A DNA stretch of 49,225 nucleotides from Methanobacteriota archaeon (lineage in GTDB: Archaea > Thermoplasmatota > Thermoplasmata > RBG-16-68-12): positions 1 to 49,225 of the forward strand of contig VBLR01000151.1 in NCBI GenBank assembly GCA_005878665.1. The letters are read 5' to 3'. Shown here one piece after another: positions 22,130 through 44,567 of the stretch. How positions within the stretch are numbered: the first letter of the stretch is position 1; each line of letters opens with the position of its first letter. The notes under the pieces were generated by a model. The model saw only the letters and a list, made by a program, of their open reading frames with translations, was not told the origin of the DNA and made no database searches. Both the position numbers and the translations under genes were made by a program.

Positions 22130-22978
22130 GTGCATCCTGGCGCAGGCTCCTCGAGGCACACATTGCACGCGGGATCCCCGAACGTGCTCGACAAACTCTC
22201 CTTCGTCCTCGCGAGCCGGCAGAGGGAGAAAGTTCTCGCGGCCGTCATCCCGGGCCCGCAGACGCCGGTTCAAATCGCGAAGCGGACGGGCCTTCGCCTC
22301 CCCCACGTGAGCCGGACGCTCGGGCAGCTCGTGCGAGCCGAGCTGGCGCAGCGCGTCGGCGGGGAACGCCGCGGGAAACTGTACGCGGCTTCGAGGGTCG
22401 GGCTGGCGGTGTTCGGGGAGCTCTCCGAGGCCCGCGGTGACCGACTGGTCGCACCCATGATTCGTGGCAGCCACTTTCGGAACTACCATCATTGGATTGC
22501 CGTCCATCACGGTCGGGCCGCAGCCGACAAGACTCTCATCGAGGCCGGCGTGGATCCCGCGCTCATCCATGCGGACCGCTGGTATCCGCTGCGGTCCGCG
22601 CTGGACGTCCTTGAACATGTGGAAACGCGGTTCGGGGACGGAACGTATGAAACGGTCCGCCGGATGATGAGGGACGAGGCGATCAACTTCACTTCGCTCC
22701 GACGCTTCGTCAAGCGCGTGATTCCCTTCCCGATCCTGCTGGAACTCTCGCCGAACTCGTACGCGCGCGAGTTCAATCACGGCCGTCTCGAAGTCGATGT
22801 CGAAGACCATCGGGCGGTCTTTCGAAACTACGATTGGATGAGCAGTCCCGCCCGATGCGCGGCGTGGCTCGGGACCTACGAAGGTTCCCTCGCCATGCTC
22901 GGGATTGCCGGAACCGTCACGAAGATCGCGTGCATCCTCCGCGGCGACCCCTACTGCGGCTACCGGATCGACTGGTGA
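22130..22978 (+). CDS. winged-HTH transcriptional regulator with C-terminal V4R-like ligand-binding domain
   Basis: The N-terminal ArsR/MarR-like wHTH is REKVLAAVIPGPQTPVQIAKRTGLRLPHVSRTLGQLVRAELAQR. The C-terminus CAAWLGTYEGSLAMLG...ACILRGDPYCGYRIDW fits the V4R Cys pattern. The exact start is uncertain. Confidence 0.6.
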   Translation: MHPGAGSSRHTLHAGSPNVLDKLSFVLASRQREKVLAAVIPGPQTPVQIAKRTGLRLPHVSRTLGQLVRAELAQRVGGERRGKLYAASRVGLAVFGELSEARGDRLVAPMIRGSHFRNYHHWIAVHHGRAAADKTLIEAGVDPALIHADRWYPLRSALDVLEHVETRFGDGTYETVRRMMRDEAINFTSLRRFVKRVIPFPILLELSPNSYAREFNHGRLEVDVEDHRAVFRNYDWMSSPARCAAWLGTYEGSLAMLGIAGTVTKIACILRGDPYCGYRIDW

Positions 22979-23166: not shown

Positions 23167-23715
23167 TTACAAGTCCTCGTGGTTCTCGCGGGTCCCGTAC
23201 GGCGTCGAGTACTTGTGCGTCTCCCGGATCCGTTCGACACCGTCGATCTCTTTGATGTACTCCGCGACTACCGCAGGCACCAGGGATTCCCAGTCGCCGC
23301 CTTTGAGCATCCGTTGGCGGACGACGGTCCCGGAGAGCCGCTCGCGGTCCACGAGCGGAGGAGACGTAACCTTGAGACCGTGCTCCCGGAACAGCCTTAC
23401 GACGAGATCCGAGTTCGTATACACGATATCAAACCGAGGCACGAGGGACGTCACGTGGCTGACCCACACGCTGTGCACGTGGGTGTCCGGAATCGGGACG
23501 ATGTGGTAGTTGTGGATCCCCTCCGCGTCGAGGGCCCGCTTAATCATCTCGTATCGTTCGCCCGCGGTGAACGGATTCTCCCCGGTGTGACTGTATTGCG
23601 CGGAGCCGATGCCGACGATGATCTCCTCGTTCGATTCGAGGATCCGCTTGACCGTCGCGAGGTGACCGCGATGGAACGGCTGGAAACGGCCGATGAAGAA
23701 CGCGCGGCCGCTCAT
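23167..23715 (-). CDS. nadM: nicotinamide-nucleotide adenylyltransferase (archaeal NMNAT)
   Basis: MSGRAFFIGRFQPFHRGHLATVKRIL carries the (H/T)xGH nucleotidyltransferase motif, and the ~180-aa length is typical of archaeal NMNAT. ATG 23715 overlaps the stop of the upstream mini-ORF (ATGA). Confidence 0.9.
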   Translation of the reverse strand: MSGRAFFIGRFQPFHRGHLATVKRILESNEEIIVGIGSAQYSHTGENPFTAGERYEMIKRALDAEGIHNYHIVPIPDTHVHSVWVSHVTSLVPRFDIVYTNSDLVVRLFREHGLKVTSPPLVDRERLSGTVVRQRMLKGGDWESLVPAVVAEYIKEIDGVERIRETHKYSTPYGTRENHEDL

Positions 23716-23867
23716 TCGTCGTCCTCTGCCAGGAAGTGATCGATGTAGGGGCATTCGAGCGTCAGGAACTTCCGGCAATGGACGCACAGGCCGTCGTCGT
23801 CAGCGGGCGAGAGGGCCGGCCCGGACTCATAGCACGGCATCGGTTCGGAGAACTCGGAGGGATCCAT
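23712..23867 (-). CDS. unannotated 51-aa acidic Cys4 mini-protein, translationally coupled to NMNAT
   Basis: MDPSEFSEPMPCYESGPALSPADDDGLCVHCRKFLTLECPYIDHFLAEDDE. ATG start, good GC3, stop overlapping the NMNAT start. It is below the 60-aa cutoff of the ORF track. Confidence 0.45.
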   Translation of the reverse strand: MDPSEFSEPMPCYESGPALSPADDDGLCVHCRKFLTLECPYIDHFLAEDDE

Positions 23868-23893: not shown

Positions 23894-25879
23894 TCAGTGG
23901 GGCACGGCGGCCGGGCCGGGCTTGTCCGGCGTGATCTTCGGGACCAAGGCCACGAGTTTGCTAATGAGCCCGGATTTCTTGGGACCCACGAGCGCCTGCT
24001 CGAGGACCTCGCTCAGCGTGTCCACCGGAACGATCTCGATCTTCCCCTGGTAGCGGTCCTCCAGCAGGACGTCCTTCAGGTTCGAGCGGGGAATCACGAC
24101 CTTCAGAAGGCCGAGTTCCGCCGCGGCTTCGATCTTCGCGGTCACGCCGCCGACCGGGAGGACCTGTCCGCGCACGCTCAGCGAGCCCGTCATCGCGACG
24201 GTCTGGTTGACGGGAACCTCTTCGAGGGCGCTGATCACGGCGGTGGCGACGGAGATGGACGCGCTGTCGCCCTCCGTGCCTTCCCGGGATCCGACGAACT
24301 GAACGTGGATGTCGTGGTTCGAGATGTCTTCGCCCGTGTACTTCTTGATCAGGGCCGAGACGTTCTCTACCGCCTCTTTCGCGATCTCCCCGAGGCGACC
24401 GGTCGCGATGATTCGGCCTCCCTGTTTCGCCTGCGCGGGGGTCACCTCGGCGGCGATGGGCAAGACAATGCCGCTGAACTCCGCGATGGAGTTGTCGCCG
24501 ACGAGGACGGCAAGCCCGTTCACCATGCCAACGATGGCGCCTTCCGTGATGAACGTCTGGTACTCCTTGCCGCGCTCGATCATTCGGTCCGCGACCTGCT
24601 GTTCGAGGGACCGCGCGATTCGTTTCGCGTTCAGGACATGCTTCGCGGTGACGAGGGGCGTGGACTCTTCTTGGGCGATATCACCCGCGACCCGGATCAG
24701 GCCACCGAGCTCGCGCAACCGCAAGGTCAGTTGGCCGCGGCGGCCGGCCCTCCGCTGCGCCTCCCGCAGAATCTCGAGGACCGCGGTGCGGTCGAAGTGC
24801 GGGATCTTCCGGTCCTTCGCGACTTCCTGGGCGACAAACCGCACGAGCTTGAGCCGGTTCTCGTCCGAGTCGGGCATCGTGCTCTTCATGTAAATCTCAT
24901 AACCGTATCCCCGAATCCGGGAGCGGAGGGCGGGATGCATCCCCTGAATCGCGTCGAGGTTTCCGGCGGCGACCAGGATGAAGTCGCATGGAACGGCCTC
25001 GGTCTTGACCATTGCCCCGGAGGACCGCTCGCTCTGGCCCACGATCGAGAATTTCTTCTCCTGCATCGCGGTCAGGAGGCTCTGCTGGCTCTCCATGCGG
25101 AGGACGTTGATCTCGTCGACGAACAGTACGCCTTTGTGGGCCTTGTGAATCGCACCGGATTCGACGCGCTCATGGGCCGGCGTCTCGAGCCCGCCACTCT
25201 GGAACGGGTCGTGCTTGACGTCCCCAAGAAGCGCGCCCGCATGGCTCCCCGTCGCATCGACGAACGGGGGCATCTCGTCGGGCGTGTGACTCACGAGGAG
25301 CTTCGGCACCATCAGGTTCTCGTGCCCTCGGCCCGTGTATCGAGTCGCGATGTAGATGATCGCCGCCACGAGGATGCCGAACAGGATGATGTTCGGCGCG
25401 TCGGGACGGAACTCGGGTGTCGGCGAGCCCCATTGATACGAGAGGATCACGCTCAGACCGATGATGAAGAAGACGATCGTCATGACCATGGAAGCTTTCT
25501 GTTCCCGGCGTTGCATCGCCTCCGCCTTCTGCGCGTTGACGATTTCGCGGCCTTTCCCGGCGGGCACGACGCGAATCTTCGGCTCGTTTGGATCTTCCGG
25601 GTTGTGGTAGACAATGATGTCTTGCAGGTCGTCTCGGGGCAGGAGTTCCGTCATCGAACGGGCTAACATCGACTTGCCCGTGCCGGGGTCGCCGATGAGC
25701 ATCACGTGGCGCTTCTGTTCCGAGGCTTTCCGGATGACCTCGACGGCCCGCTCCTGGCCGATGACCTGATCGACGAGCCTCTCGGGGATCTTGACTTCCG
25801 CTGTGGACCGGAAGTCGACCTTGTTAATCCACGTATCCACAGGGGGGAGCTCTTCGGGCTCTCCCACGGTCTCCACCAT
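23894..25879 (-). CDS. lonB: archaeal membrane-bound ATP-dependent Lon protease (LonB)
   Basis: 661 aa. Walker A is GDPGTGKSMLA. Two TM helices are inserted in the AAA+ module (MVMTIVFFIIGLSVILSY, IILFGILVAAIIYIATRY). The C-terminal Lon protease domain contains MTGSLSVRGQVLPVGGVTAKIEAA. Confidence 0.95.
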   Translation of the reverse strand: MVETVGEPEELPPVDTWINKVDFRSTAEVKIPERLVDQVIGQERAVEVIRKASEQKRHVMLIGDPGTGKSMLARSMTELLPRDDLQDIIVYHNPEDPNEPKIRVVPAGKGREIVNAQKAEAMQRREQKASMVMTIVFFIIGLSVILSYQWGSPTPEFRPDAPNIILFGILVAAIIYIATRYTGRGHENLMVPKLLVSHTPDEMPPFVDATGSHAGALLGDVKHDPFQSGGLETPAHERVESGAIHKAHKGVLFVDEINVLRMESQQSLLTAMQEKKFSIVGQSERSSGAMVKTEAVPCDFILVAAGNLDAIQGMHPALRSRIRGYGYEIYMKSTMPDSDENRLKLVRFVAQEVAKDRKIPHFDRTAVLEILREAQRRAGRRGQLTLRLRELGGLIRVAGDIAQEESTPLVTAKHVLNAKRIARSLEQQVADRMIERGKEYQTFITEGAIVGMVNGLAVLVGDNSIAEFSGIVLPIAAEVTPAQAKQGGRIIATGRLGEIAKEAVENVSALIKKYTGEDISNHDIHVQFVGSREGTEGDSASISVATAVISALEEVPVNQTVAMTGSLSVRGQVLPVGGVTAKIEAAAELGLLKVVIPRSNLKDVLLEDRYQGKIEIVPVDTLSEVLEQALVGPKKSGLISKLVALVPKITPDKPGPAAVPH

Positions 25880-26072
25880 CTTCTGACCAGGCCCTCGCGT
25901 GGGTCGCGTTCGAATACACGAGCCTTCTACTTAAACACTTTGACCTTGAAAACCCGAATGAGATTCCGAAAGTCTCGACCTTTCTCCATACGCGGGCGCT
26001 CCTCGGCGCACGATTTGTGGATGTGTCGCTGCCGTCGTGCGTCGCGTTTCGACCAGATCGATAATGCGGTCC

Positions 26073-26609
26073 TTACGCCACGGCCCGCTGCGTGATCATC
26101 TGGGCGAGCTTCGCAAACGCAATCTCGACATTCTCGCCCGTCTTCGCCGATGTGAACAAGAACGGTGCATCGTGCGCTTCCGCCGCGCTCTGGATGTCGG
26201 CCTTCGTGACGGTCATCTGACCCTTTAGGTCCGCTTTGTTCGCGAGGAATTCGATCGGGACGTTCCCCGTGACCTTCACGACCGCCGCGACCCAATCCTC
26301 CAAGTCGTCCAGCGTCTCCTTTCGGGTGACATCGCAGACGGCGAGGACGCCCTGGGCTCCATGGAAGTAGGCTTCCTTCAGGAGCTCGCGGAATCCTTTC
26401 TCGCCCATGATGTCCCAGATCGTCATGTCGACATCCATGCCGCCGCTCGGGCCGTCGACTTTGATCTCCTTCTTCGAGACTTTCGCCCCGAGGGTCGAGA
26501 TGTATCGGTCGTCGAACTGGTCCTGGATGAACCTCCGGATCAGGCACGTCTTGCCGACCGCGCCCTCGCCGACGAGGCAGACCTTGACCTTCATCTTTTG
26601 GCGGTCCAT
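26073..26609 (-). CDS. Ras-superfamily (Rab-like) small GTPase, paralogue 1
   Basis: G1 is GEGAVGKT, switch I YISTLGAKV, G3 WDIMGEKGF, G4 NKAD, G5 TSAK. 178 aa, no C-terminal Cys box. Confidence 0.9.
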   Translation of the reverse strand: MDRQKMKVKVCLVGEGAVGKTCLIRRFIQDQFDDRYISTLGAKVSKKEIKVDGPSGGMDVDMTIWDIMGEKGFRELLKEAYFHGAQGVLAVCDVTRKETLDDLEDWVAAVVKVTGNVPIEFLANKADLKGQMTVTKADIQSAAEAHDAPFLFTSAKTGENVEIAFAKLAQMITQRAVA

Positions 26610-26650
26610 TGGAATCCCTGAAATGGGTGCATCGCTCGCACACGCCTCAG

Positions 26651-26660
26651 GTTATAAAGG
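26651..26660 (-). promoter_or_regulatory. TATA-box-like element (CCTTTATAAC on minus strand) for GTPase paralogue 1
   Basis: Lies 42-51 nt upstream of ATG 26609, the same spacing as the element upstream of paralogue 3. Confidence 0.4.
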
Positions 26661-26725
26661 CGTTGCCCATCGGTTATCTACCGAGATAATGGCCGGGCCC
26701 TCGGAGCCGCCGAGTCGACGCTCGA

Positions 26726-27283
26726 TTACTCATTTCCGCGGTGCCCGATCGCCTCGGCGAGGGCACGGAACGCCTCGTTCACGCCGGCCCCGGTCTTGGC
26801 GGATGCGAGAAACTGCGGGGCGGTGTGGATCGACCCCATCCGGGCGAGCTCTTCCTGGCTGACGACGAGTCGCTCGGTCAAGTCCATCTTGTTCCCGAGG
26901 AAGACCATCGGGACGTTGCCCACCTGCTTCCGGATCATCTGGACCCAGTTGTTCAGATCGTAGAACGTGTCTTTGCGCGTGAGGTCGCAGACCGCGATCA
27001 CGCCCTGGGATCCCTCGAAATACGCATCGCGGAGCAGCGCCCGGAATCCTTTCTCGCCCATGATGTCCCAGACCATCATGTCGAGCGTCGCGGGAGCGCC
27101 CTTCCAGACCATGTCGACCGATTTCTTGGTGACTTTCGTGCCGACGGTCGCGATGTACCGATCGTCGAACTGATCCTGCACGAACCGCTTGATGAGCGAG
27201 GTCTTGCCGACCGCGACATCCCCGACGAGGCAGACCTTGGCCTTGAGGTGCTTCTGGCCGGCCATCGTGGAGGTCGCCATCAT
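26726..27283 (-). CDS. Ras-superfamily (Rab-like) small GTPase, paralogue 2
   Basis: G1 is GDVAVGKT, switch I YIATVGTKV, G3 WDIMGEKGF, G4 NKMD, G5 ASAK. The start may be the internal ATG at 27265 (MAGQKHLKAKVCLVGD), which aligns with the other two N-termini. Confidence 0.9.
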   Translation of the reverse strand: MMATSTMAGQKHLKAKVCLVGDVAVGKTSLIKRFVQDQFDDRYIATVGTKVTKKSVDMVWKGAPATLDMMVWDIMGEKGFRALLRDAYFEGSQGVIAVCDLTRKDTFYDLNNWVQMIRKQVGNVPMVFLGNKMDLTERLVVSQEELARMGSIHTAPQFLASAKTGAGVNEAFRALAEAIGHRGNE

Positions 27284-27303
27284 GCGTCACCCATTGGGCG
27301 CGG

Positions 27304-27311
27304 TCTTATGT
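27304..27311 (-). promoter_or_regulatory. TATA-box-like element (ACATAAGA on minus strand) for GTPase paralogue 2
   Basis: Lies 39-46 nt upstream of ATG 27265. This supports the shorter start and independent transcription. Confidence 0.3.
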
Positions 27312-27345
27312 ACCGTGAGCACGCGAGTATCGCCCCTGATAATTC

Positions 27346-27909
27346 TTACTCTTCAGGGAGCACTTTCCGTGCGTAACGCTCCTTCGCGACGCGCTCCGCC
27401 AGGGACTGGAACGCGTTCTCGACGTTGACGCCGGCCTTCGCCGACGTGAAGTGGAACGGACTATCGTATGCGCGCGCGGCCTGGACCATGTCGTCCTCGC
27501 TGATCTGGACCTGGTCTTTCAGGTCGACCTTGTTCCCGAGGAACTCGATCGGGATTTTGCCGGTCACGCTGTAGACGCCTTCGATCCAATCGTCGAGGTC
27601 GTCGAGCGTCTTCTTCCGGGTCACGTCGCACACCGCGAGGATCCCGCGGGCTCCGTAGAAGTACGCTTCCTTGAGCAGTTCTCGGAAGCCTTTCTGGCCC
27701 ATGATGTCCCAGATGGTCATGTCGATTTTCAGTTCCCCCGACCCGTCCGGCGAGGTCGAGGTCAGCTCCTTCTTGGAGACCTTCGTCCCCAGCGTCTGGA
27801 TGTACTTGTCATCGAAGTTCTCGAGCACGAATCGGCGGATGAGGGAGGTCTTGCCAACCGCGGCCTCGCCAACAAGGCAAACTTTCACTTTCATCCGCTT
27901 GACTTCCAT
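27346..27909 (-). CDS. Ras-superfamily (Rab-like) small GTPase, paralogue 3
   Basis: G1 is GEAAVGKT, switch I YIQTLGTKV, G3 WDIMGQKGF, G4 NKVD, G5 TSAK. 187 aa. Confidence 0.9.
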   Translation of the reverse strand: MEVKRMKVKVCLVGEAAVGKTSLIRRFVLENFDDKYIQTLGTKVSKKELTSTSPDGSGELKIDMTIWDIMGQKGFRELLKEAYFYGARGILAVCDVTRKKTLDDLDDWIEGVYSVTGKIPIEFLGNKVDLKDQVQISEDDMVQAARAYDSPFHFTSAKAGVNVENAFQSLAERVAKERYARKVLPEE

Positions 27910-27950
27910 GAAGAACCGCCCGGCGACGTGGCATAGCCCGCGAAGCCCGC

Positions 27951-27960
27951 TTAAAAGTTA
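27951..27960 (-). promoter_or_regulatory. TATA-box-like element (TAACTTTTAA on minus strand) for GTPase paralogue 3
   Basis: Lies 42-51 nt upstream of ATG 27909 in an otherwise GC-rich spacer. Confidence 0.4.
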
Positions 27961-28062
27961 TGGGAGCGTTATCACCGACGATACATGCAGACCTCCGGTT
28001 CGCTCATTCGTTGCGGTGTCACACGCGCGGGCTGAAAAGGCGAAGCGTTTTGTATTTTCGCC

Positions 28063-28254
28063 GTGATGCCGTGGATCGAAGGCGCGGCGATGTGTGACGA
28101 ATATTACGACGCGCGCATGAAGGCGTTCTGGCGGGCGCTCGCGGAAGCGGACGAACGAGAAGTGGACGAGAAAGAAGACGAGCCAATCGTGCAACCGCTC
28201 GTCCTCGAGATCGCCGAACCGCAAAAGGCCAAGCCGAAAACGCTCCTCCGCTGA
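28063..28254 (+). CDS. hypothetical 63-aa acidic protein, divergent from the GTPase array
   Basis: MMPWIEGAAMCDEYYDARMKAFWRALAEADEREVDEKEDEPIVQPLVLEIAEPQKAKPKTLLR. GC3-biased codons. The competing minus-strand ORFs here are Arg-rich junk. No family recognised. Confidence 0.4.
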   Translation: MMPWIEGAAMCDEYYDARMKAFWRALAEADEREVDEKEDEPIVQPLVLEIAEPQKAKPKTLLR

Positions 28255-28325: not shown

Positions 28326-28503
28326 GGCCCCTCCATAGGGACGGCCCAACGCGTCGACCAGACGCCCCCGGGCAATCCCTCCGTGGATCCCGGAAATGCG
28401 GGCCCGATTCTTCTGGCCTGGCAGGCGGCGTCACGGTGTCGCGACCGAACGCCCGCGGCTCATCGTACGCGAGGAGAGACCACTCTGTGCGGAGGAGTGG
28501 CGA

Positions 28504-29508
28504 ATGCCGAAGGAACACCGACCGAGACACGGATCGATGGGCTTTTCGCCCCGCAAGCGGAGCGAGAGCCCGATTCCGCATTTCTCAAGTTGGCCCGACG
28601 TTGACGGCGGCACGCCGAGACTGCAGGGCTTCGCCGGCTACAAGGCGGGCATGACCCACGCGATCGTGGTCGACTACCGGCCCACCTCGACGACCTCGGG
28701 GCAGGAGGTCCAAGTCCCCGTGACCGTGGTCGAGGTGCCGCCGATGCGGGTCGCCGCGGTCCGATTGTACCGCCGCGTGCCAGAGGGCCTCAAGACGGCC
28801 GCGGAAGTATGGGCGGCGCAACTGGAGAAAGAGCTTCGACGCGTCTTCCCGATTCCGAAAGAGTACGATGCGGAAGAGGCCTGGTCGAAGGTCGACCCGG
28901 CCCACGTCGACGAGGTTCGGGTGATCACATACACGCAGCCGTCGCTCGTCACCGGCGTCCCGAAGAAGAAGCCGGACCTCATGGAAAATCGCGTCGGTGG
29001 CGGATCGATTGAAGACCGCATCAAGTACGCGCGTGGCCTCCTTGGGAAGGAAATTCCCGTCACCGAATTCTGTCGCGAAGGATCCATGGTGGACGTCGCC
29101 GCGATCACGAAAGGGAAGGGATGGCAAGGCCACCACACGCGCTGGGGCACGCGGCTCCTGAGTCACAAGAACTCAAAACATCGGCGAAACATCGGCACGC
29201 TCGGGAACTTCCAGCCCGGGTATGTGCGCCCGACCGTGCCGCAAGGCGGCCAATTCGGCTATCATCAGCGGACCGAGTACAACAAGCGAATCCTGAAGAT
29301 CGGCGACAAAGCGGAAGAGGTCACGCCGGACGGCGGCTTCCTCCACTACGGGAATCTCCGGAATCCGTACGTGCTGCTGCACGGGTCGATACCGGGCCCG
29401 ACGAAACGCCTCATCCGATTCCGCGATGCGGCTCGAGGCGGATTCGTGAAACTCGAGAAGTCTCCCGACCTCACGTTCATCTCCCGTGAATCGAAGCAGG
29501 GGGTGTGA
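28504..29508 (+). CDS. rpl3: 50S ribosomal protein L3 (uL3)
   Basis: MPKEHRPRHGSMGFSPRKRS...GYKAGMTH is typical of archaeal L3. The track start at 28396 adds an implausible Arg-rich extension. Confidence 0.95.
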   Translation: MPKEHRPRHGSMGFSPRKRSESPIPHFSSWPDVDGGTPRLQGFAGYKAGMTHAIVVDYRPTSTTSGQEVQVPVTVVEVPPMRVAAVRLYRRVPEGLKTAAEVWAAQLEKELRRVFPIPKEYDAEEAWSKVDPAHVDEVRVITYTQPSLVTGVPKKKPDLMENRVGGGSIEDRIKYARGLLGKEIPVTEFCREGSMVDVAAITKGKGWQGHHTRWGTRLLSHKNSKHRRNIGTLGNFQPGYVRPTVPQGGQFGYHQRTEYNKRILKIGDKAEEVTPDGGFLHYGNLRNPYVLLHGSIPGPTKRLIRFRDAARGGFVKLEKSPDLTFISRESKQGV

Positions 29509-29513
29509 CGTCG

Positions 29514-30449
29514 ATGGCGGATCCCGAGGAAAAGAAGGACGCCGCGGGATCCGCGGAGGCCGAACCCGCACCGAAGCGCCGTCGGAGGGCTTCGAAACCC
29601 GCGAAGGCCGCGAAGGCTGCGAAGGCCACGAAGGGGAAGGAAGAAAAACGGGAAACGCCCGCGGTGAAAGCCGGTCAGGTCCACGTGTATTCGCTCGATG
29701 GCGATGTCGTGAAGACGATCGACCTCCCGACCGTATTCCGGTCCGACATCCGCCTCGACCTGATTCGACGCGCGGTGACCGCGTTCCAGGCGAATCGACG
29801 ACAGCCGTACGGTCCGGGCATCGGGGCGGGGATGCGCCACTCCGTCCGCTGGTCGGGCAAGGGACACGGCGTCTCGCGGGTTCCGCGCCTTCGGGGCACG
29901 ATGACCGGCGCGCAGGCGCCGGGAACCGTCGGCGGTCGCCGGGCTCATCCGCCCCGTCCGGACACCGTATGGGCGAAGAAAATCAACGAACACGAACGGC
30001 GTCTCGCCCGCAACGCGGCGCTCGCGGCCCTGAAGGATCCGCAGATGGTCGCATCGCGCGGACACCGGTTCCCGGACGACGTCACGCTCCCCGTTGTGAT
30101 CGAGGACGGCATCGAGACGCTCACCCCCGAATCGGGCGCGACGCGCGAGGGGCTGAAGATTCTCAATCACCTCGGCCTTATGCACGATGTCGAACGGGCG
30201 AAAGACGGACGGCACATCCGAGCCGGACGCGGGAAGATGCGCGGTCGGCGGTATCGGCAACCGCGGAGCGTCCTCGTCGTCGTGAAGGAGGCCCGCACGG
30301 TCCGTCGCCTCCTGGGAAACCTCCCGGGCGTCGAGGTCGTCAGTCCGGCGGCGTTGAACGCCGAGGTCCTCGCCCCCGGGGGCGATCCGGGGCGGCTCAC
30401 CGTCTTCAGTGAAGGGGCGCTCGAGGTGCTCAGGAGTTGGCCACCGTGA
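29514..30449 (+). CDS. rpl4: 50S ribosomal protein L4 (uL4) with Lys/Ala-rich N-terminal extension
   Basis: The core runs from VHVYSLDGDVVKTIDLPTVF ... RAHPPRP ... RAGRGKMRGRRY. It is preceded by ~55 aa of AEPAPKRRRRASKPAKAAKAAKATKGKEEK. Confidence 0.93.
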   Translation: MADPEEKKDAAGSAEAEPAPKRRRRASKPAKAAKAAKATKGKEEKRETPAVKAGQVHVYSLDGDVVKTIDLPTVFRSDIRLDLIRRAVTAFQANRRQPYGPGIGAGMRHSVRWSGKGHGVSRVPRLRGTMTGAQAPGTVGGRRAHPPRPDTVWAKKINEHERRLARNAALAALKDPQMVASRGHRFPDDVTLPVVIEDGIETLTPESGATREGLKILNHLGLMHDVERAKDGRHIRAGRGKMRGRRYRQPRSVLVVVKEARTVRRLLGNLPGVEVVSPAALNAEVLAPGGDPGRLTVFSEGALEVLRSWPP

Positions 30450-30727
30450 AGCCCCACGAGATCCTCCTCCATCCGTACGTCACAGAGAAGACGATGAACA
30501 TGCTCCAGGGGACGCCGGCGCAGGATCTGAAAGACGGCAATCGCCTCGAGTTCCTCGTCCGCCGACAAGCGACGCGGGACCAGGTCAAGAAAGCGTTCGA
30601 GGACCTCTTCCAGGTGAAAGTCGAGAAGGTCAACACGTTCGTGCGTAAGGATGGCAAACACGCGATCATCAAATTGAAGCCGGGCTTTTCCGCGGAGGAG
30701 ATCGGGATGCGGATCGGGGTGTTCTGA
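30446..30727 (+). CDS. rpl23: 50S ribosomal protein L23 (uL23)
   Basis: VKPHEILLHPYVTEKTMNML...HAIIKLKPG. GTG 30446 overlaps the rpl4 stop (GTGA); TTG 30437 is the alternative. Confidence 0.93.
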   Translation: MKPHEILLHPYVTEKTMNMLQGTPAQDLKDGNRLEFLVRRQATRDQVKKAFEDLFQVKVEKVNTFVRKDGKHAIIKLKPGFSAEEIGMRIGVF

Positions 30728-31440
30728 TGGGGAAGAATCTGCGACCCCAGAGGCGCGGCCGCGGCACCTCGCCGACGTACCGGTCGCCGAGCCACCGCCA
30801 TCCCGGTCCCGTCGTCCATCCGCACCTTCGCGGGACCGGCGTCGTCACGGACATCTTCCAGGCGCCCGGTCACACCGCGCCGCTCGCGCGCGTCCGCTTC
30901 GACGGCCAGGAAGTCCTCATGATCGCGTGTGACGGTCTCTCGATCGGCCAGGCGGTCACACACGGCATGCCGAACGTGGACCGAGGGAACACGTTGCCCC
31001 TCCGCGACATCCCGGAAGGAACGCTCGTCTACAACGTGGAAGCGATGCCCGGGGACGGAGGGAAGTTCGTCCGCGCCGCGGGGACGCAAGCCGTCGTCGT
31101 CAGCCAAGCCGAGCGAACGGTCGTCCAGCTACCGTCCGGACAGTTCCACACGTTCCATCCGGACTGCCGGGCCACGATCGGCGCGGTCGCGGGAGCGGGC
31201 CGTGGAGACAAGCCCTTCACGAAGGCTGGCAAGAAGTGGTTCTCGTATCAATCGCTCAGCAAGGCGGCCTTTCACGTCCGCGGGGTCGCGATGAATCCAG
31301 TCGACCACCCACACGGTGGCGGGTCACACCAGCACGTCGGGAAACCGTCGACCGTGGGCTATGACGCTCCTCCCGGCCGGAAGGTCGGCCGGATGTCCCC
31401 GAAGCCGAAGCGGCTGAAGGAAAAACGACGGAGGTCCTGA
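30727..31440 (+). CDS. rpl2: 50S ribosomal protein L2 (uL2)
   Basis: 237 aa: GKNLRPQRRGRG...MNPVDHPHGGG. Confidence 0.96.
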   Translation: MGKNLRPQRRGRGTSPTYRSPSHRHPGPVVHPHLRGTGVVTDIFQAPGHTAPLARVRFDGQEVLMIACDGLSIGQAVTHGMPNVDRGNTLPLRDIPEGTLVYNVEAMPGDGGKFVRAAGTQAVVVSQAERTVVQLPSGQFHTFHPDCRATIGAVAGAGRGDKPFTKAGKKWFSYQSLSKAAFHVRGVAMNPVDHPHGGGSHQHVGKPSTVGYDAPPGRKVGRMSPKPKRLKEKRRRS

Positions 31441-31442
31441 AC

Positions 31443-31910
31443 GTGGCGAAGAAGCAGATGGGTGGGCTCGCGAAAGCCGCGAGACGGAAGCTGCGGAAGC
31501 GCGCGGGCTTAGTCGAGACGCGGCGCAAGAAGGAGTTCACGTACCGCGGGTACACGCTCGACGAGATGAAGGCGATGACCCTCGAAGAGATCATCGAGCT
31601 CCTGCCCGCCCGACCTCGACGCTCGTTCATGCGCGGCATCGATGAGGAGCGCTTCACGTTCGTCGAGAAGGTCCGCGCGAACGGCACCGATGAGGCGGTG
31701 CGCACGCATTGCCGCGACGTCCCGATCCTGCCGGATTTCGTCGGCAAGAAGGTCGCGGTGCACAACGGGAAAGAATTCGTGACCGTCGAGATCAAGGCGG
31801 AGATGATCGGGCACTACATCGGCGAGTTCGCAATGACGCGCAAGCCGGTCACCCACAGCGGACCGGGCGTCGGGGCGACGCGATCGTCGAAGTTCATGCC
31901 GCTGAAGTGA
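31443..31910 (+). CDS. rps19: 30S ribosomal protein S19 (uS19)
   Basis: FTYRGYTLDEMKAM...VAVHNGKEFVTVEIKAEMIGHYIGEFAMTRK. GTG start. Confidence 0.95.
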   Translation: MAKKQMGGLAKAARRKLRKRAGLVETRRKKEFTYRGYTLDEMKAMTLEEIIELLPARPRRSFMRGIDEERFTFVEKVRANGTDEAVRTHCRDVPILPDFVGKKVAVHNGKEFVTVEIKAEMIGHYIGEFAMTRKPVTHSGPGVGATRSSKFMPLK

Positions 31911-31917
31911 GGTTCGA

Positions 31918-32373
31918 ATGACGAAGTTCGGGTACACGGTCGAATACAAGATCGAGACGATGGCCCGAGCCTACGGCCGGGAGCTGCCGCTCGCCTGGAA
32001 GAAGTCCGTCGAGCTCGCCCGACAGCTCCGCGGGAAGACGGTCGACCAGGCGCGCGAATACCTCGAAAAGGTGATCGCGCTCAAGCAGCCCGTGCCGATG
32101 AAGAAGTATAAACGGTGGGTCGCGCACAAGTCCGGAGTCGGGCCGGCCCGCTACCCGGTCAAAGCGGCGAAGGCGTTCCTCAAGATCCTCGAGAGCGCGG
32201 TCGCGAACGCGGAATTCACGGGGAAGGAGGATCCCGACGCGATGGTCATCCGTGTGATCAACGCCCACAAGGGGGCGACGACGAAAGCGTTCCGCCCTCG
32301 AGCATACGGGCGAAGCGGTCCATGGAACCAGGACACCGTGAACCTCGAGATCGTCCTGGAAGAGGTGGCGTGA
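31918..32373 (+). CDS. rpl22: 50S ribosomal protein L22 (uL22)
   Basis: 151 aa: ARAYGRELPLAWKKSVELARQLRGKTVDQA...INAHKGATTKAFRPRAYGR. Confidence 0.95.
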   Translation: MTKFGYTVEYKIETMARAYGRELPLAWKKSVELARQLRGKTVDQAREYLEKVIALKQPVPMKKYKRWVAHKSGVGPARYPVKAAKAFLKILESAVANAEFTGKEDPDAMVIRVINAHKGATTKAFRPRAYGRSGPWNQDTVNLEIVLEEVA

Positions 32374-32374
32374 G

Positions 32375-33265
32375 ATGCCGGCGGAAGCGAAGGTCAACCG
32401 AAAGGACAAGCGGATCATCGTCGAGAACGTCCGCCGCGTCCTCCTCAAGGAATACCTGATGAACGAGACGCGACGGGCCGGCTTCGGCGGGCTGGACATC
32501 CAACGCACGCCGATGGGGACCCGGGTCACCCTCCTGGCCGAACGTCCGGGGCTCGTCATCGGCCGGAAGGGCGGCGCGATCAAGAGCCTCACGGAAGCGG
32601 TCGAGCAAAAGTTCCGGTTCGACAACCCGCAGATCGAAGTCCAGGAGGTCGCGAGCCCTGCGCTGAACGCCCAGATCATGGCGGAGAAGCTCGCGAACGC
32701 CCTCGAGCGGGGCTGGCATTTCCGACGGGCCGGCCACTCGACCGTGCGGCGGATCATGGAAGCCGGCGCGAAGGGTTGCCTCGTCGTGATCGCGGGCAAG
32801 CTCACGGGGCAGCGGCATCGCACGGAGAAGTTCAAGGCGGGTCACATCAAGTACTGCGGCGAGCCGCGGAACCTCTGGATGGACCTCGGGTTCGCATCGG
32901 CCAAACTGAAGCCCGGCGTCATCGGAGTGACCGTCGAGATCATGGATCCGCGGGCGAAGCTGCCCGACGAAATCGAGATCAAGAAGCCGACCGCCGAGTA
33001 CCTCGCCGCCGCGGCGGCTGCTGCGGAGGCAGAACGGATTGCCCCGCCGGAGCCGATCGTCGAGGTCGCGGCCGTGGTCGGACCCGGAATCGATGGAGAG
33101 TCGGTCGAAGAGCCGGAGCCCCTGATCGTCCCCGAAGAGGCCGATCCGGCGAAGAAGGTCAAGAAGAGCAAGGTCGCGGCGAAGCGGCTCAAGAAAGTCG
33201 CGAAGCAGGTGAGTGAACTCGGGGTCGACGTCGACGTGGACACCGGAGGAGGCGACGAAACGTAA
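32375..33265 (+). CDS. rps3: 30S ribosomal protein S3 (uS3) with long acidic/Lys-rich C-terminal tail
   Basis: KH-domain core ([36 protein letters not shown]) plus a ~80-aa tail. Confidence 0.95.
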
Positions 33266-33531
33266 TGCCGCTGCTCCGGACGAAGGAGATCCGCGCGATG
33301 GACGCGGAGACGATCGCGAAGAAGCTCACGGAGCTTCGGGACGAACTCATGCATGAGCGGGGCGTGGCCGCGATGGGTGGCGCGCCGCCGAACCCCGGGA
33401 AGATCCGGGCGCTCCGGAAGAACATCGCTCGTATCCTGACAATCATGCGAGAGGAAGAGTTGGCGGGAAGCGCCCCGGCCCCGGCGAAAGCCGCTCCCGG
33501 GAAGGCCGCTCCGTCCGGAGAGGAGACGTGA
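33265..33531 (+). CDS. rpl29: 50S ribosomal protein L29 (uL29)
   Basis: [30 protein letters not shown]... plus an Ala/Pro/Lys tail. The ATG overlaps the rps3 TAA by 1 nt. Confidence 0.93.
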
Positions 33532-33785
33532 TGGTGAACCTGCGGAAGCACGAGCTGATCGGGCTCCGGGTGGAGGTCGTCGATGCATCCGACCCGAGCC
33601 AGGAGCATGTCCGCGGACGCGTCGTCGACGAGACTCGGAACATGCTGGTGGTCGACGTGCAGGGAGAGGAGAAGCGAATCCCGAAACACGGCAGCCGCTT
33701 CCGGTTCGACGTCCCCGGCGGCTTCGAGGTCGACGGCGATGAGATTCGATTTCGACCCGAGGATCGCGTGAAGAAGGCCCGGTGA
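33528..33785 (+). CDS. rnp1: RNase P protein component 1 (Rpp29/Pop4 homologue)
   Basis: [34 protein letters not shown]....IPK...F.F is the Sm-like Rpp29 fold signature, at its conserved position between rpl29 and rps17. Confidence 0.88.
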
Positions 33786-33791
33786 ATTGAG

Positions 33792-34190
33792 ATGGCGGGG
33801 AAGAAGGCGCAGAAGAAACCGGCCACGCCGGCCTCCGCGCCGAAACCGGTCGGCTCGACCGTGCGGGACGTCGGGATTGACGTTCCGATACCGGAGAAGC
33901 CGTGCACGGACCCGAAATGCCCGTTCCACGGTCGACTGTCCGTCCGCGGCCAGACCCTGGAAGGCGTCGTCGTGTCGACTCGGATGCAGAACACGGTCGT
34001 CATCGAGCGCCAGTACCTGCGGTTCATCCGGAAGTATCAGCGCTACGAGAAGCGGACGCACCGCATGAATGTCCACGCGCCGCCGTGCCTCGGGCTCCAG
34101 ATCGGGCATCGTGTCCTCGCGATGGAATGCCGGCCCCTCGGGAAGACCGTCCACTTCGTCGCGATTCACAACCAGGGGGTCGCCGGATGA
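33792..34190 (+). CDS. rps17: 30S ribosomal protein S17 (uS17)
   Basis: [51 protein letters not shown], preceded by a Lys/Pro-rich N-terminus. Confidence 0.95.
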
Positions 34191-34585: not shown

Positions 34586-34594
34586 GGACTCCGG

Positions 34595-34954: not shown

Positions 34955-34961
34955 GTCGACC

Positions 34962-35672: not shown

Positions 35673-35680
35673 GTGGGACC

Positions 35681-36333: not shown

Positions 36334-36342
36334 GGGGACGCC

Positions 36343-36732: not shown

Positions 36733-36740
36733 GTGACAAC

Positions 36741-37286: not shown

Positions 37287-37287
37287 C

Positions 37288-40797: not shown

Positions 40798-40801
40798 GCC
40801 G

Positions 40802-44565: not shown

Positions 44566-44567
44566 CC

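What the first reader, a model, noticed from the sequence alone, without database searches (positions are those of the whole stretch)
26073..27960. Tandem array of three Ras/Rab-like small GTPase paralogues with divergent catalytic residues
**Motifs.** Three consecutive minus-strand genes (178, 185 and 187 aa) are clear paralogues. Each carries every Ras-superfamily motif:
- P-loop: GEGAVGKT / GDVAVGKT / GEAAVGKT
- Rab-like switch I: Y(I)xT(L/V)G(A/T)KV
- Switch II: WDIMG(E/Q)KGF
- NK(A/M/V)D, and (T/A)SAK

The switch II sequence DIMGxKGF differs from the canonical DTAGQE.

**Catalytic positions.** The position equivalent to Ras Q61 is Glu in two copies and Gln only in 27346..27909. The Ras G12 position is Gly, Val and Ala respectively. 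The middle copy combines Val and Glu, so it is predicted to be hydrolysis-impaired. This pattern suggests sub-functionalisation, for example a regulator/effector pair or a heteromer.

**Context.**
- None of the three has a C-terminal Cys lipidation box.
- Each has its own TATA-like element about 40-50 nt upstream, so they look like separate transcription units.
- No Roadblock/LC7, longin, GAP or GEF-like partner is nearby.
- The neighbours are lonB (own TATA-like element at about 25928-25937) and a divergent 63-aa acidic ORF.

Eukaryote-like small GTPases are numerous in Asgard archaea, but in euryarchaeal-type genomes they are sporadic and functionally uncharacterised.
Basis: partly seen in the sequence, partly recalled or inferred. 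Interest (0 to 1): 0.7.

Follow-up and report, generated by a model that had tools for sequence, protein, structure and literature searches.

The report
Conserved archaeal small-GTPase gene triplet
Three neighbouring genes in an uncultured soil archaeon (Thermoplasmata) encode related Ras/Rab-like GTP switches that have stayed together in the same order across a whole archaeal clade, each with its own catalytic-site variant and all preceded by the same DNA control motif, but what they control is still unknown.

Summary
Three minus-strand genes (26073-26609, 26726-27283, 27346-27909) encode 178-187-aa Ras-superfamily GTPases with complete G1-G5 motifs (Pfam Ras, E 1e-35 to 1e-38).

In 75 related Thermoplasmata genome loci the array is conserved as an ordered triplet, or a quartet in deeper lineages, directly upstream of lonB-NMNAT.

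The catalytic-site pattern is fixed per orthologue:
- First gene: always Gln at the Ras-Q61 position (68/68).
- lonB-proximal gene: Gly12 plus Glu61 (59/60).
- Middle gene: fast-evolving, with a bulky or polar non-Gly residue at position 12 (V/F/I/T, rarely S) plus Glu in 48 of 49.

All three are under purifying selection (dN/dS 0.12-0.19).

New here: each gene has its own TATA-like box preceded by a palindrome, TATC-N6-GATA. It occurs three times in 49 kb (0.12 expected), and 136 of 153 sites across 1.07 Mb of related loci precede array genes.

No GAP or GEF lies in the window. In one sub-clade, however, a membrane-ORF plus Roadblock/longin-like (MglB-like) unit sits immediately before the array, and family members occur fused to DUF835 (iKaiC) and TPR domains.

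Glu at position 61 is not evidence of a dead enzyme, because Ras Q61E hydrolyses faster.

Verdict: an uncharacterised, co-regulated, sub-functionalised variant of prokaryotic Ras-like ("Rup"-type) GTPases.

The parts
27346..27909 (-). G3 (array position 1), 187 aa. Ras-like GTPase: P-loop GEAAVGKT, switch II WDIMGQKGF, basic/acidic tail KERYARKVLPEE. This is the 'Gln-type' orthologue.
   Evidence: ORF. Pfam Ras 121 bits. The orthogroup has Gln at the Ras-Q61 position in 68/68 members. NJ bootstrap 83%. dN/dS 0.12.
26726..27283 (-). G2 (array position 2), 185 aa. Ras-like GTPase: P-loop GDVAVGKT (Val at the Ras-G12 position), switch II WDIMGEKGF. It is the fastest-evolving member.
   Evidence: In 49 complete triplet loci the middle member has V, F, I, T or S (1) at position 12, never Gly, and Glu at position 61 in 48 of 49. 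Mean pairwise identity is 0.63, against 0.73 and 0.78 for the others. dN/dS 0.19. AlphaFold model pLDDT 81.5; best Foldseek matches are Rab5, Rab43, Rab21 and Rab1, target-normalised TM about 0.8-0.87.
26073..26609 (-). G1 (array position 3, lonB-proximal), 178 aa. Ras-like GTPase: P-loop GEGAVGKT (Rho/Rac-like by recollection, Gly12 kept), switch II WDIMGEKGF.
   Evidence: In the orthogroup GEGAVGKT occurs in 59/60 and WDIMGEKGF in 59/60. dN/dS 0.19.
27970..27983 (.). Operator palindrome TATC-N6-GATA (TATCACCGACGATA), 9 nt upstream of the G3 TATA-like box. It lies in the divergent intergenic region shared with the small acidic ORF.
   Evidence: One of only 3 sites in the 49-kb window (0.12 expected; 0 of 100 shuffles reached 3). 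Conserved at array promoters in related loci.
27328..27341 (.). Operator palindrome (TATCGCCCCTGATA) upstream of the G2 TATA-like box. It starts 5 nt after the G3 stop codon.
26675..26688 (.). Operator palindrome (TATCTACCGAGATA; full TTATC-N6-GATAA) upstream of the G1 TATA-like box.
   Evidence: An exact site is present at position 3 in 44 of 49 triplet loci.
27950..27960 (-). TATA-like box of G3 (TAACTTTTAAG), centre about 46 nt before the ATG. This predicts a 5' UTR of about 20 nt.
   Evidence: Sequence. Conserved as AAC[G/T]TTTA[A/T][A/G] in 45 loci.
27303..27313 (-). TATA-like box of G2 (GGTACATAAGA), centre about 25 nt before the ATG. This predicts a leaderless mRNA.
   Evidence: A conserved A/T box (ACATAAG, AGATAAA, CTTTAAG or TTTATCT) sits at the same place in related loci.
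26651..26660 (-). TATA-like box of G1 (CCTTTATAAC), centre about 46 nt before the ATG.
   Evidence: It is the best conserved of the three (TTTATAA in nearly all 45 loci; median distance 46).
28090..28254 (+). Context: a divergently transcribed, conserved 54-aa acidic protein (MCDEYYDARMKAFWRAL...KPKTLLR). Belonging to the system is not shown.
   Evidence: The conserved N- and C-terminal motifs are present in 25 related loci, and the start is at the internal Met. Gene callers call it. It has no Pfam, NCBIfam or PADLOC match.
23894..25879 (-). Context: lonB (membrane AAA+ Lon protease), the invariant downstream neighbour. It has its own TATA-like box (25926-25937) and no operator.
   Evidence: Pfam Lon_C and LonB_AAA-LID. 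LonB was found in 63 of the 75 loci, downstream of the array wherever the locus reaches far enough; exceptions are L050/L051. The promoter alignment shows no palindrome.

Best explanation
The locus is a conserved, co-regulated cassette of three separately transcribed paralogous Ras-superfamily GTP switches. They are Rab-like in fold and 'Rup'-type in the prokaryotic classification. They belong to a large GTPase family so far traced only to Thermoplasmatota and related uncultured euryarchaeal MAGs, with the switch II signature WD-[I/V]-x-G-[Q/E].

**Shown**
- All three keep every residue needed to bind Mg-GTP and to switch: P-loop K/T, switch-I Thr, DxxG, NKxD and SAK.
- The three types are stable across the sampled clade, with fixed gene order.
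- Residues that distinguish the orthologues and are conserved within each lie only at the catalytic and partner-binding face: next to the P-loop (position 22), in and around switch I and in switch II, plus the Ras-G12 position.
- Each gene has its own promoter, preceded by the same palindrome.

**Inferred**
- One dimeric transcription factor binds TATC-N6-GATA just upstream of BRE/TATA. By analogy with TrmBL1 sites upstream of promoters, it activates all three genes together.
- The three proteins differ in GTPase kinetics and in regulator and effector specificity.
  - G3 (Gln61) is the canonical GAP-responsive switch.
  - G1 (Gly12 + Glu61) may hydrolyse through the Glu as a general base.
  - G2 (bulky residue 12 + Glu61) is expected to exclude an arginine finger and to stay GTP-bound longer.
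- Their regulator is most likely a membrane-tethered MglB-like protein with Roadblock and longin-like domains. It is encoded elsewhere in this lineage and directly before the array in a sister sub-clade.
- The output is signal transduction, possibly through KaiC/iKaiC (DUF835) modules, rather than vesicle budding.
For: **Identity and fold**
- Pfam Ras 120-132 bits.
- A PDB profile search gives Rab1, Rab8, Sec4 and Thorarchaeota Rab at E 1e-31 to 1e-33.
- The model is Rab-like.

**Conservation and order**
- 75 loci.
- Catalytic pattern fixed per orthologue.
- Specificity positions 22, 35, 38, 45, 70 and 83.
- dN/dS 0.12-0.19.

**Separate promoters**
-.
- A 2.1-kb insertion between G3 and G2 is tolerated in L005.

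**Operator**
- 3 sites in the window against 0.12 expected.
- 136 of 153 exact sites in 1.07 Mb lie within 130 nt upstream of an array GTPase gene.
- Present in quartet lineages.
- Archaeal sites upstream of BRE/TATA activate transcription (PMC4706686).

**Glu not inactivating**
- Ras Q61E shows raised intrinsic GTPase activity.

**Partner**
- A ~275-aa family with an N-terminal Roadblock domain (Pfam 36.5 bits) and a C-terminal domain of longin-type topology.
- Best Foldseek matches are MglB, Asgard Roadblock and Ragulator p14/MP1.
- It is always paired with a hydrophobic 126-143-aa ORF with three predicted TM segments (read by eye).
- The unit lies directly upstream of, and co-oriented with, the triplet in L032 and L084. 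In L084 and L085 it sits behind the degenerate position-1 operator; the short contig L085 shows the same upstream flank and breaks off 28 codons into the following gene.
- The same C-terminal domain sits between DUF835 and a G3-type GTPase in fusion protein P0131.
- It also forms the cytoplasmic tail of two membrane proteins beside an unlinked GTPase pair.

**KaiC link**
- GTPase-DUF835 fusions occur in both orders.
- A KaiC-like ATPase and a 7TM-DUF835x2 protein are conserved divergent neighbours of the quartet in six genomes.
- DUF835 is the iKaiC signalling domain (PMC5847659).
Against: - There is no biochemical or expression data.
- In the window's own lineage the Roadblock unit is unlinked, has a different conserved promoter and lacks the operator.
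- Adjacency to the array is seen in only 3 of about 100 Roadblock-family clusters.
- DUF835 fusions are 2 of 57 long family representatives, and TPR fusions 4 of 57.
- No DUF835 or KaiC gene is in the window.
- The transcription factor is unidentified. The nearby wHTH gene (22130-22978) is conserved in only 21 loci.
- Deep branching of the paralogues is unresolved (bootstrap below 30%).
- Kinetic predictions from Ras residue equivalence may not transfer. Rab has Ser and Arf has Asp at the 'G12' position (own knowledge).
Confidence: 0.5

Rival explanations
1. **Obligate heteromer.** The three proteins assemble into one complex. The middle copy acts as a pseudo-GTPase-like, constitutively GTP-bound regulatory subunit. 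This is comparable in logic to Rag heterodimers or GTPase/pseudo-GTPase pairs, rather than three independent switches.
For: - The stoichiometric-looking set with fixed order is conserved across the clade.
- A shared operator implies joint expression.
- The middle copy evolves fastest yet is under purifying selection.
- No member of the window triplet combines Gly12 with Gln61.
Against: - There is no dimerisation domain, such as the C-terminal roadblock domain of Rag; all three are bare G domains.
- Apparent two-domain database proteins are assembly chimeras, not natural fusions.
- Copy number varies: 2 in L033, 4 in deeper lineages.
Confidence: 0.15
2. **lonB-coupled module.** The GTPases regulate the membrane LonB protease, or are regulated by it through degradation. 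This would explain the invariant adjacency.
For: - lonB-NMNAT follows the array wherever the locus reaches far enough (LonB found in 63 of 75 loci).
- This includes quartet lineages where the other flank has changed from the uL3 end to the SecY end of the r-protein cluster.
Against: - lonB has its own conserved promoter without the operator, and a gap of 67-1020 nt.
- The whole region is broadly syntenic in this clade, including TctA and hydantoinase, so adjacency may be inherited gene order.
- L050/L051 have the array without lonB.
- No known precedent was found in the library.
Confidence: 0.12
3. **Membrane remodelling or vesicle formation.** The proteins would act like eukaryotic Rab/Arf or the haloarchaeal ArvA GTPase.
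For: - The closest solved structures are Rabs.
- ArvA shows that euryarchaeal small GTPases can drive vesiculation (PMC10927574).
- Thermoplasmata are often wall-less (own knowledge).
- The candidate partner is membrane-tethered.
Against: - There is no lipidation Cys.
- N-termini are only 7-14 residues before beta1, so there is no Arf-like amphipathic helix.
- Arf scores are far below Ras scores.
- No DUF2073 or DUF2072 (ArvB/ArvC) match among the scanned window genes.
Confidence: 0.1
4. **Redundant recent duplicates.** These would be three ordinary, equivalent GTPases whose sequence differences are neutral.
For: - Tandem paralogues with 52% and 64% identity to the lonB-proximal copy and identical core motifs.
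Against: - Orthologue-specific residues and gene order are fixed across loci in which orthologue identity drops to about 50-60%.
- The Gln-type group is monophyletic (83% bootstrap).
- dN/dS is 0.12-0.19 for each.
Confidence: 0.05

Closest known systems
Rup family (Ras-superfamily GTPases of unknown function in prokaryotes; Wuichet & Sogaard-Andersen 2015, PMC4316618)
   Same: - Single-domain proteins under 240 aa with Ras-like G1-G5 motifs, including the G3 Asp.
- Not encoded next to mglB in most genomes.
- Uncharacterised.
- Multi-copy in some archaea: Group 2 has up to six copies per genome.
   Different: - The described archaeal Group 2 is crenarchaeal and has no conserved neighbourhood.
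- Here the family is found in Thermoplasmatota, with an ordered and syntenic array, a fixed catalytic pattern per orthologue, a shared operator, and occasional Roadblock adjacency.
- Phylogenetic placement within Rup was not tested.
Eukaryotic and Asgard Rab GTPases (Rab1, Rab8, Sec4; Thorarchaeota Rab, PDB 7ezb)
   Same: - Best sequence-profile matches (E about 1e-31 to 1e-33) and best fold matches (target-normalised TM about 0.8-0.87).
- By eye, several Rab-family segments look similar: the W of WDxxG, YF-x-GA and the AVCDVT stretch.
   Different: - No C-terminal Cys for prenylation.
- Switch II is WDIMG[Q/E]KGF, not WDTAGQERF.
- The P-loop is Rho/Rac-like (GxGAVGKT) (own knowledge).
- Two of the three carry Glu instead of the catalytic Gln.
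- No GDI/REP, TBC or DENN partners were seen.
MglA/MglB polarity switch (Myxococcus, Thermus)
   Same: - A small Ras-like GTPase working with a Roadblock/LC7 regulator.
- The candidate partner's best structural matches are MglB chains.
   Different: - The G3 Asp is present, whereas MglA lacks it.
- The Roadblock gene is unlinked in most genomes.
- The partner is a two-domain Roadblock plus longin-like protein, coupled to a small membrane protein.
- There are three GTPase paralogues instead of one.
ArvA archaeal vesiculating GTPase (Haloferax volcanii, PMC10927574)
   Same: It is the only experimentally characterised euryarchaeal small GTPase found here's searches, and it is widely distributed in archaea.
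   Different: - ArvA is Arf-like (PF00025/PF01926) and has an N-terminal amphipathic helix.
- It is followed by arvB (DUF2073) and arvC (DUF2072).
- None of these applies here.
Rnd/RhoE-type GTPase-deficient Rho proteins (own knowledge, not tested here)
   Same: A non-Gly residue at the Ras-G12 position, as in G2 (GDVAVGKT). In Rnd proteins this is associated with constitutive GTP binding.
   Different: - These are eukaryotic, lipidated proteins.
- G2 additionally has Glu at position 61.
- The resemblance is recalled from memory; it is a lead, not a test.
Ragulator-Rag and Mon1-Ccz1-Rab7 (roadblock/longin platforms for small GTPases)
   Same: - The candidate partner combines a Roadblock domain with a domain of longin-type topology and is paired with a membrane anchor.
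- Foldseek hits include p14/MP1 and Mon1-Ccz1.
   Different: - No interaction has been demonstrated.
- The GTPases lack Rag-type C-terminal roadblock domains.
- The Mon1-Ccz1 alignments are loose (rmsd about 20 A).

Membership tests
Ras superfamily of small GTPases (Pfam PF00071 / TIGR00231) | G domain of about 170 aa scoring above the curated cut-offs | tested here: met
   PF00071 scores 120-132 bits against a cut-off of 21.6. TIGR00231 scores 55-73 bits against 42.5.
Ras superfamily of small GTPases (Pfam PF00071 / TIGR00231) | G1 GxxxxGK[ST], G2 Thr, G3 DxxG, G4 NKxD and G5 SAK all present | tested here: met
   Present in all three window proteins, and conserved in nearly all of the 217 array members.
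Rab family sensu stricto | C-terminal Cys prenylation motif | tested here: not met
   No Cys in the last 6 residues of any window protein, and only 2 of 147 orthologues have one.
Rab family sensu stricto | Closest relatives by sequence and fold are Rabs | tested here: met
   Best PDB profile hits are Rab1, Rab8 and Sec4. Foldseek gives Rab5, Rab43, Rab21 and Rab1.
Rab family sensu stricto | RabF/RabSF motif set (Rabifier-type classification) and placement inside the Rab clade | not tested
   Only inspected by eye, where similarity looked partial. No Rabifier run and no phylogeny with eukaryotic sequences were done.
Rup family (PMC4316618) | Small (150-240 aa) single-domain Ras-like GTPase that keeps the G3 Asp | tested here: met
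   178-187 aa with WD66IMG. Definition.
Rup family (PMC4316618) | Not coupled to an mglB/Roadblock gene | tested here: inconclusive
   No Roadblock gene in the window or in most loci. However, a Roadblock/longin-like gene lies directly upstream of the array in L032 and L084.
Rup family (PMC4316618) | Branches within the Rup clade in a joint MglA/Rup/eukaryote tree | not tested
MglA family | G3 motif lacking the conserved Asp; gene adjacent to mglB | tested here: not met
   The Asp is present in all members. No adjacent mglB in the window. Criterion.
ArvA family (PMC10927574) | Arf-like GTPase followed by arvB (DUF2073) and arvC (DUF2072); N-terminal amphipathic helix | tested here: not met
   Ras scores far exceed Arf scores (132 vs 49 bits). 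The downstream genes are another GTPase or lonB. Only 7-14 residues precede beta1.
Roco (Roc-COR) proteins | Roc domain followed by a COR domain within a multidomain protein | tested here: not met
   The Roc model matches (92-97 bits), but the proteins end right after the G domain.
Rag/Gtr GTPases | C-terminal roadblock dimerisation domain | tested here: not met
   The Gtr1_RagA match covers only the G-domain part, profile positions 1-127 of 232.
Anti-phage defence systems (PADLOC) | Match to a defence-system protein model | tested here: not met
   No hit for any of the three GTPases or the small ORF.

The most novel reading that the evidence does not exclude
The array together with the membrane-tethered Roadblock/longin-like protein could form a multi-GTPase signalling platform in a non-Asgard archaeon, working like Ragulator-Rag or Mon1-Ccz1-Rab. 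The three (or four) paralogues would act in sequence or as a heteromer, using different hydrolysis chemistries: Gln, Glu, and finger-resistant. The module would be switched on by one dedicated transcription factor. This would mean the 'eukaryote-like' logic of small GTPase plus roadblock/longin regulator, including paralogue cascades, is not confined to Asgard archaea and eukaryotes.
Probability: 0.15. Interest if true: 0.8.

Novelty: new variant of a known kind. Interest (0 to 1): 0.55.

Why it matters
Small Ras-like GTPases outside eukaryotes and Asgard archaea are almost entirely uncharacterised. This locus offers a well-defined and evolutionarily stable system.

- **Natural variation.** It has three or four paralogues that differ exactly at the two classic Ras oncogenic positions (12 and 61). 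That amounts to a natural experiment on how GTPase chemistry is tuned.
- **Regulation.** A specific cis-element gives a handle on how the genes are controlled.
- **Candidate partner.** An MglB-like Roadblock/longin-like protein gives a concrete biochemical hypothesis to test.
- **Family size.** 695 clusters at 50% identity score E <= 1e-30 with the profile, though that set also includes eukaryote-type Rab-like multidomain proteins. The named members are all Thermoplasmatota or related uncultured euryarchaeal MAGs, so the family is a substantial and overlooked part of their regulatory repertoire.
- **Broader question.** It bears on how widespread GTPase/roadblock/longin signalling is in archaea.

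Tried and rejected
1. **ArvA-type vesiculation system.** Rejected. There are no DUF2073 or DUF2072 neighbours, Ras scores far exceed Arf scores, and there is no N-terminal helix.
2. **MglA.** Rejected because the G3 Asp is present.
3. **Defence system.** No PADLOC match.
4. **'Rosetta stone' fusions of two paralogues** (P0070, P0098, P0124, P0028). These are assembly chimeras that join partial domains at conserved motifs.
5. **Extra operator sites in quartet loci as further regulon members.** They lie inside conserved uL18 coding sequence.
6. **The wHTH gene at 22130-22978 as the universal regulator.** It is conserved in only 21 of 75 loci, while the operator reaches deeper lineages.
7. **Operator at unlinked paralogue pairs (L073, L074) or at the unlinked Roadblock unit (L079-L083, L086).** Absent.
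8. **The palindrome as the Thermococcales TGM.** The half-sites are similar, but the spacing differs: TATC-N6-GATA here, against TATCAC-N5-GTGATA, which is TATC-N9-GATA.
9. **A V4R plus Roadblock pair** seen 3 kb from the L065 GTPase cluster. It was not found in the window or in any other locus.
10. **tRNA and Rfam scans** of the window found only tRNA-His at 48708.
11. **Bacterial promoter/terminator scan.** Uninformative for an archaeon.
12. **Makarova et al. 2017 KaiC-hub paper.** Not held in the library.

Full report
**1. Observation**

The three minus-strand ORFs are present exactly as described: 26073-26609 (178 aa, G1), 26726-27283 (185 aa, G2) and 27346-27909 (187 aa, G3).
- All three score far above the curated threshold of Pfam Ras (120-132 bits against 21.6). 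They also match Roc (92-97 bits) and, more weakly, Arf (37-52 bits).
- In NCBIfam only the generic small_GTP domain model passes its cut-off; the other matches, to ribosome-biogenesis GTPases, are far below theirs.
- GC3 of 0.85-0.89 marks them as real genes in this 64% GC genome.
- Independent gene callers on public contigs call the same genes.

**2. Organism and conservation**

The closest relatives are uncultured soil, sediment and marine Thermoplasmata, labelled Methanobacteriota, Thermoplasmata or Methanomassiliicoccales MAGs.

In 75 genome loci the array is conserved.
- 49 loci show a complete triplet. Eleven, from deeper lineages, show a quartet, and one shows two genes.
- On the downstream side the array is followed by lonB and an NMNAT-type cytidylyltransferase gene wherever the locus extends far enough. 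LonB was found in 63 of the 75 loci. L050 and L051 are exceptions.
- On the upstream side the neighbour is the uL3 end of the ribosomal-protein supercluster in the triplet lineages.
- In the quartet loci inspected, the upstream neighbourhood is the SecY end of that supercluster. An ornithine carbamoyltransferase gene (L055), or KaiC-like and DUF835 genes (L063), lie in between. This is consistent with an inversion of the cluster.
- Synteny in this clade is broad, since TctA and hydantoinase are also conserved. Adjacency to lonB is therefore only moderate evidence of a functional tie.

**3. Orthologues and catalytic positions**

I extracted 220 array ORFs, aligned the 217 of normal length, and grouped them by similarity and by array position.

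| Orthologue | Position in array | Ras-G12 position | Ras-Q61 position |
|---|---|---|---|
| G3-type | first | Ala (56) or Gly (12) | Gln in 68/68 |
| G1-type | lonB-proximal | Gly; GEGAVGKT in 59/60 | Glu; WDIMGEKGF in 59/60 |
| G2-type | middle | V (35), F (9), I (2), T (2), S (1) in 49 triplets; never Gly | Glu in 48 of 49 |

- The middle type splits into several fast-evolving clusters.
- The Gln-type group is monophyletic in a neighbour-joining tree (83% bootstrap). Deeper branching is unresolved.
- In 49 complete triplets, only six positions are at least 85% conserved within each orthologue yet differ between them:
  - 22, next to the P-loop;
  - 35, 38 and 45, in and around switch I (38 directly precedes the Mg-binding Thr);
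  - 70 and 83, in switch II.
- These positions form the catalytic and partner-binding face of a small GTPase.
- Each orthologue is under purifying selection (median dN/dS 0.12, 0.19 and 0.19).
Both of its computational refutation criteria (a known prokaryotic family; a single copy without context) fail.

**4. Caveat on 'hydrolysis-impaired'**

- Ras Q61E has increased, not decreased, intrinsic GTPase activity (PMC2987813, PMC10515638). The Glu here is strictly conserved, so it may be catalytic.
- In the wider family Gln is the prevailing state: DIMGQ occurs 34 times and DIMGE 17 times among the top 150 representatives.
- The non-Gly residue at position 12 of G2 is the better argument for a long-lived GTP state or resistance to an arginine finger. 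That inference rests on Ras/Rho precedent (own knowledge) and may not transfer.
- No member of the window triplet combines Gly12 with Gln61. The first gene of the quartet lineages does.

**5. Transcription signals**

- Each gene is preceded by a conserved A/T-rich box in otherwise GC-rich spacers.
  - G3: TAACTTTTAAG at 27950-27960, about 46 nt before the ATG.
  - G1: CCTTTATAAC at 26651-26660, about 46 nt before the ATG.
  - G2: GGTACATAAGA at 27303-27313, about 25 nt before the ATG, which implies a leaderless mRNA.
- These three are the only such sites in the 49-kb window. The expectation is 0.12, and none of 100 shuffles reached three.
- In 1.07 Mb of related loci, 136 of 153 exact sites lie within 130 nt upstream of an array GTPase gene. 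The rest are mostly at contig-edge array promoters or inside conserved uL18 coding sequence.
- The site is present at position 1 of every quartet (11/11).
- It is absent from lonB promoters, from unlinked paralogue pairs and from the unlinked Roadblock unit.
- Archaeal regulator sites upstream of BRE/TATA are typically activating, as for TrmBL1. The TrmBL1 motif TATCAC-N5-GTGATA has similar half-sites but different spacing (PMC4706686).
- I infer one dimeric factor that co-regulates three separate transcription units. A 2.1-kb insertion between G3 and G2 in L005 is tolerated, which fits independent units.

**6. Fold and family**

- The G2 model (pLDDT 81.5) is a plain G domain. Its best matches are Rab5, Rab43, Rab21 and Rab1 (target-normalised TM about 0.8-0.87).
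- A sequence profile of the three proteins finds Rab1, Rab8, Sec4 and a Thorarchaeota Rab best (E 1e-31 to 1e-33).
- There is no lipidation Cys and no Arf-like N-terminal helix.
- An exhaustive profile search finds 695 representatives (50% identity clusters) at E <= 1e-30. Most of the best 150 carry the WD-[I/V]-[M/L]-G-Q/E signature. About ten are eukaryote-type WDTAGQ multi-GTPase proteins, so the 695 are not all members of this family.
- All named members are Thermoplasmatota or related uncultured euryarchaeal MAGs (labelled Methanobacteriota or Euryarchaeota).
- Many carry C-terminal extensions. Among 57 long representatives, 4 have TPR repeats and 2 have DUF835; most extensions match nothing.
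- The library holds no paper describing this family.
- Surkont & Pereira-Leal (2016) noted single divergent Rab-like proteins in a Thermoplasmatales archaeon and in Aciduliprofundum.
- In the scheme of Wuichet & Sogaard-Andersen these are 'Rup'-type, and they are not MglA because the G3 Asp is present.
- They are not ArvA either.

**7. Partners**

- The window has no Roadblock, longin, GAP or GEF gene among about 35 Pfam-scanned predicted genes (tblastn). The ribosomal-protein operon and a few small ORFs were not scanned.
- Related loci, however, point to a candidate partner. In L032 and L084 a two-gene unit lies directly upstream of, and co-oriented with, G3-G2-G1-lonB.
- In L084 and L085 the unit sits behind a degenerate copy of the position-1 operator. 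L085 is a 2-kb contig with the same upstream flank, and it breaks off 28 codons into the following gene.
- The unit consists of:
  - a hydrophobic 126-143-aa ORF with three predicted TM segments (read by eye);
  - a ~275-aa protein with an N-terminal Roadblock/LC7 domain (Pfam 36.5 bits);
  - in that same protein, a second and very conserved domain without a Pfam match (ELF..G.L.RHYSD.LRTD.DRD.L.GML).
- The model (pLDDT 79.9) shows Roadblock topology followed by beta-beta-alpha-beta-beta-beta-alpha-alpha, which is longin-type topology.
- Its best structural matches are MglB, Asgard Roadblock proteins and Ragulator p14/MP1. Mon1-Ccz1 matches loosely.
- The family has 104 clusters at 90% identity, annotated 'predicted regulator of Ras-like GTPase activity'. 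It exists in the window's own MAG lineage, but there it is encoded elsewhere, in varying contexts, always with the small membrane ORF.
- The same second domain also lies:
  - between DUF835 and a G3-type GTPase in fusion protein P0131;
  - at the cytoplasmic C-termini of two large single-pass membrane proteins beside an unlinked GTPase pair in L073.
- Separately, a KaiC-like ATPase and a 7TM-DUF835x2 protein are conserved divergent neighbours of the quartet in six genomes.
- DUF835 is the inactivated-KaiC (iKaiC) signalling domain (PMC5847659).
- These associations are few in number but independent. They point to signal transduction with a Roadblock-type regulator.

**8. Verdict**

- It is not a new kind of protein. 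It is an uncharacterised variant of prokaryotic Ras-like GTPases, organised as an ordered, co-regulated, sub-functionalised multi-paralogue cassette.
- The mechanism beyond 'GTP switch' is inferred and not shown.

Noticed in passing
window 28090-28254 (+): The '63-aa acidic ORF' is a conserved small protein. Its real start is the internal Met: MCDEYYDARMKAFWRAL..., then a variable acidic middle, then a basic KPKTLxR end. It is present in 25 related loci of the triplet clade and has no family match. It is transcribed divergently from G3 and shares the intergenic region that holds the operator.
   Followed up: partly
window 23712-23867 (-): A 51-aa Cys-containing ORF (…CYES…CVHC…C…) lies between lonB and the NMNAT gene. 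It is conserved by tblastn in 32 loci, including quartet lineages, and gene callers call it. It has no Pfam match and may be a small zinc-binding protein.
   Followed up: partly
window 22130-22978 (+): A winged-helix regulator (weak HVO_A0261_N, MarR and TrmB matches) lies convergent to the NMNAT gene. It is conserved in 21 of the closer loci only. It is a possible but unproven binder of the TATC-N6-GATA palindrome.
   Followed up: partly
window 28396-42406 versus L055 2898-8291 and L063 1058-5984: The ribosomal-protein supercluster (uL3...SecY) is inverted relative to the GTPase array between lineages. The uL3 end faces the array in the triplet clade and the SecY end faces it in the quartet loci inspected. 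An ornithine carbamoyltransferase gene travels with the SecY end (window 46314-47258; L055 8294-9211).
   Followed up: partly
L063 7317-9730 (also L066, L068, L070, L071, L075): A KaiC-like ATPase and a HisKA_7TM-DUF835-DUF835 membrane protein are conserved as divergent neighbours immediately upstream of the four-GTPase array in six genomes.
   Followed up: partly
L073 8320-10956 and 11272-13761: Two large (878 and 829 aa) single-pass membrane proteins have big extracellular parts. Their cytoplasmic tails carry the same conserved longin-like domain as the Roadblock protein. They lie 1.7-7 kb downstream of an unlinked pair of family GTPases in the same MAG as L010.
   Followed up: partly
L079-L083 and L086, about 60-100 nt upstream of the small membrane ORF: The unlinked membrane-ORF plus Roadblock unit has its own conserved upstream element (AAAA[T/C]CGAACA[A/T]T[C/T]TGA..GACA[A/G][G/C]TATAT) in genomes with otherwise unrelated flanks.
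   Followed up: no
L005 7190-9327: A 2.1-kb insertion between the first and second GTPase genes carries two ORFs (187 and 195 aa), which were not searched against any database. The array otherwise remains intact.
   Followed up: no
proteins P0028, P0070, P0098, P0124 (public protein collection): Apparent two-domain GTPases in the database are chimeras that join partial paralogue domains at conserved motifs. They are assembly or gene-call artefacts that could mislead domain-fusion analyses.
   Followed up: yes
L065 4231-4979: A V4R-domain gene and a Roadblock/LC7 gene form an overlapping pair about 3 kb upstream of a separate cluster of three family GTPases. Two opposite-strand genes lie in between.
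   Followed up: partly
window 2286-4382 (-), 14395-15045 (-), 42645-43241 (+), 44137-44727 (+), 48020-48565 (-): Five predicted genes, including one of 698 aa, have coding-type GC3 but no Pfam match.
   Followed up: no
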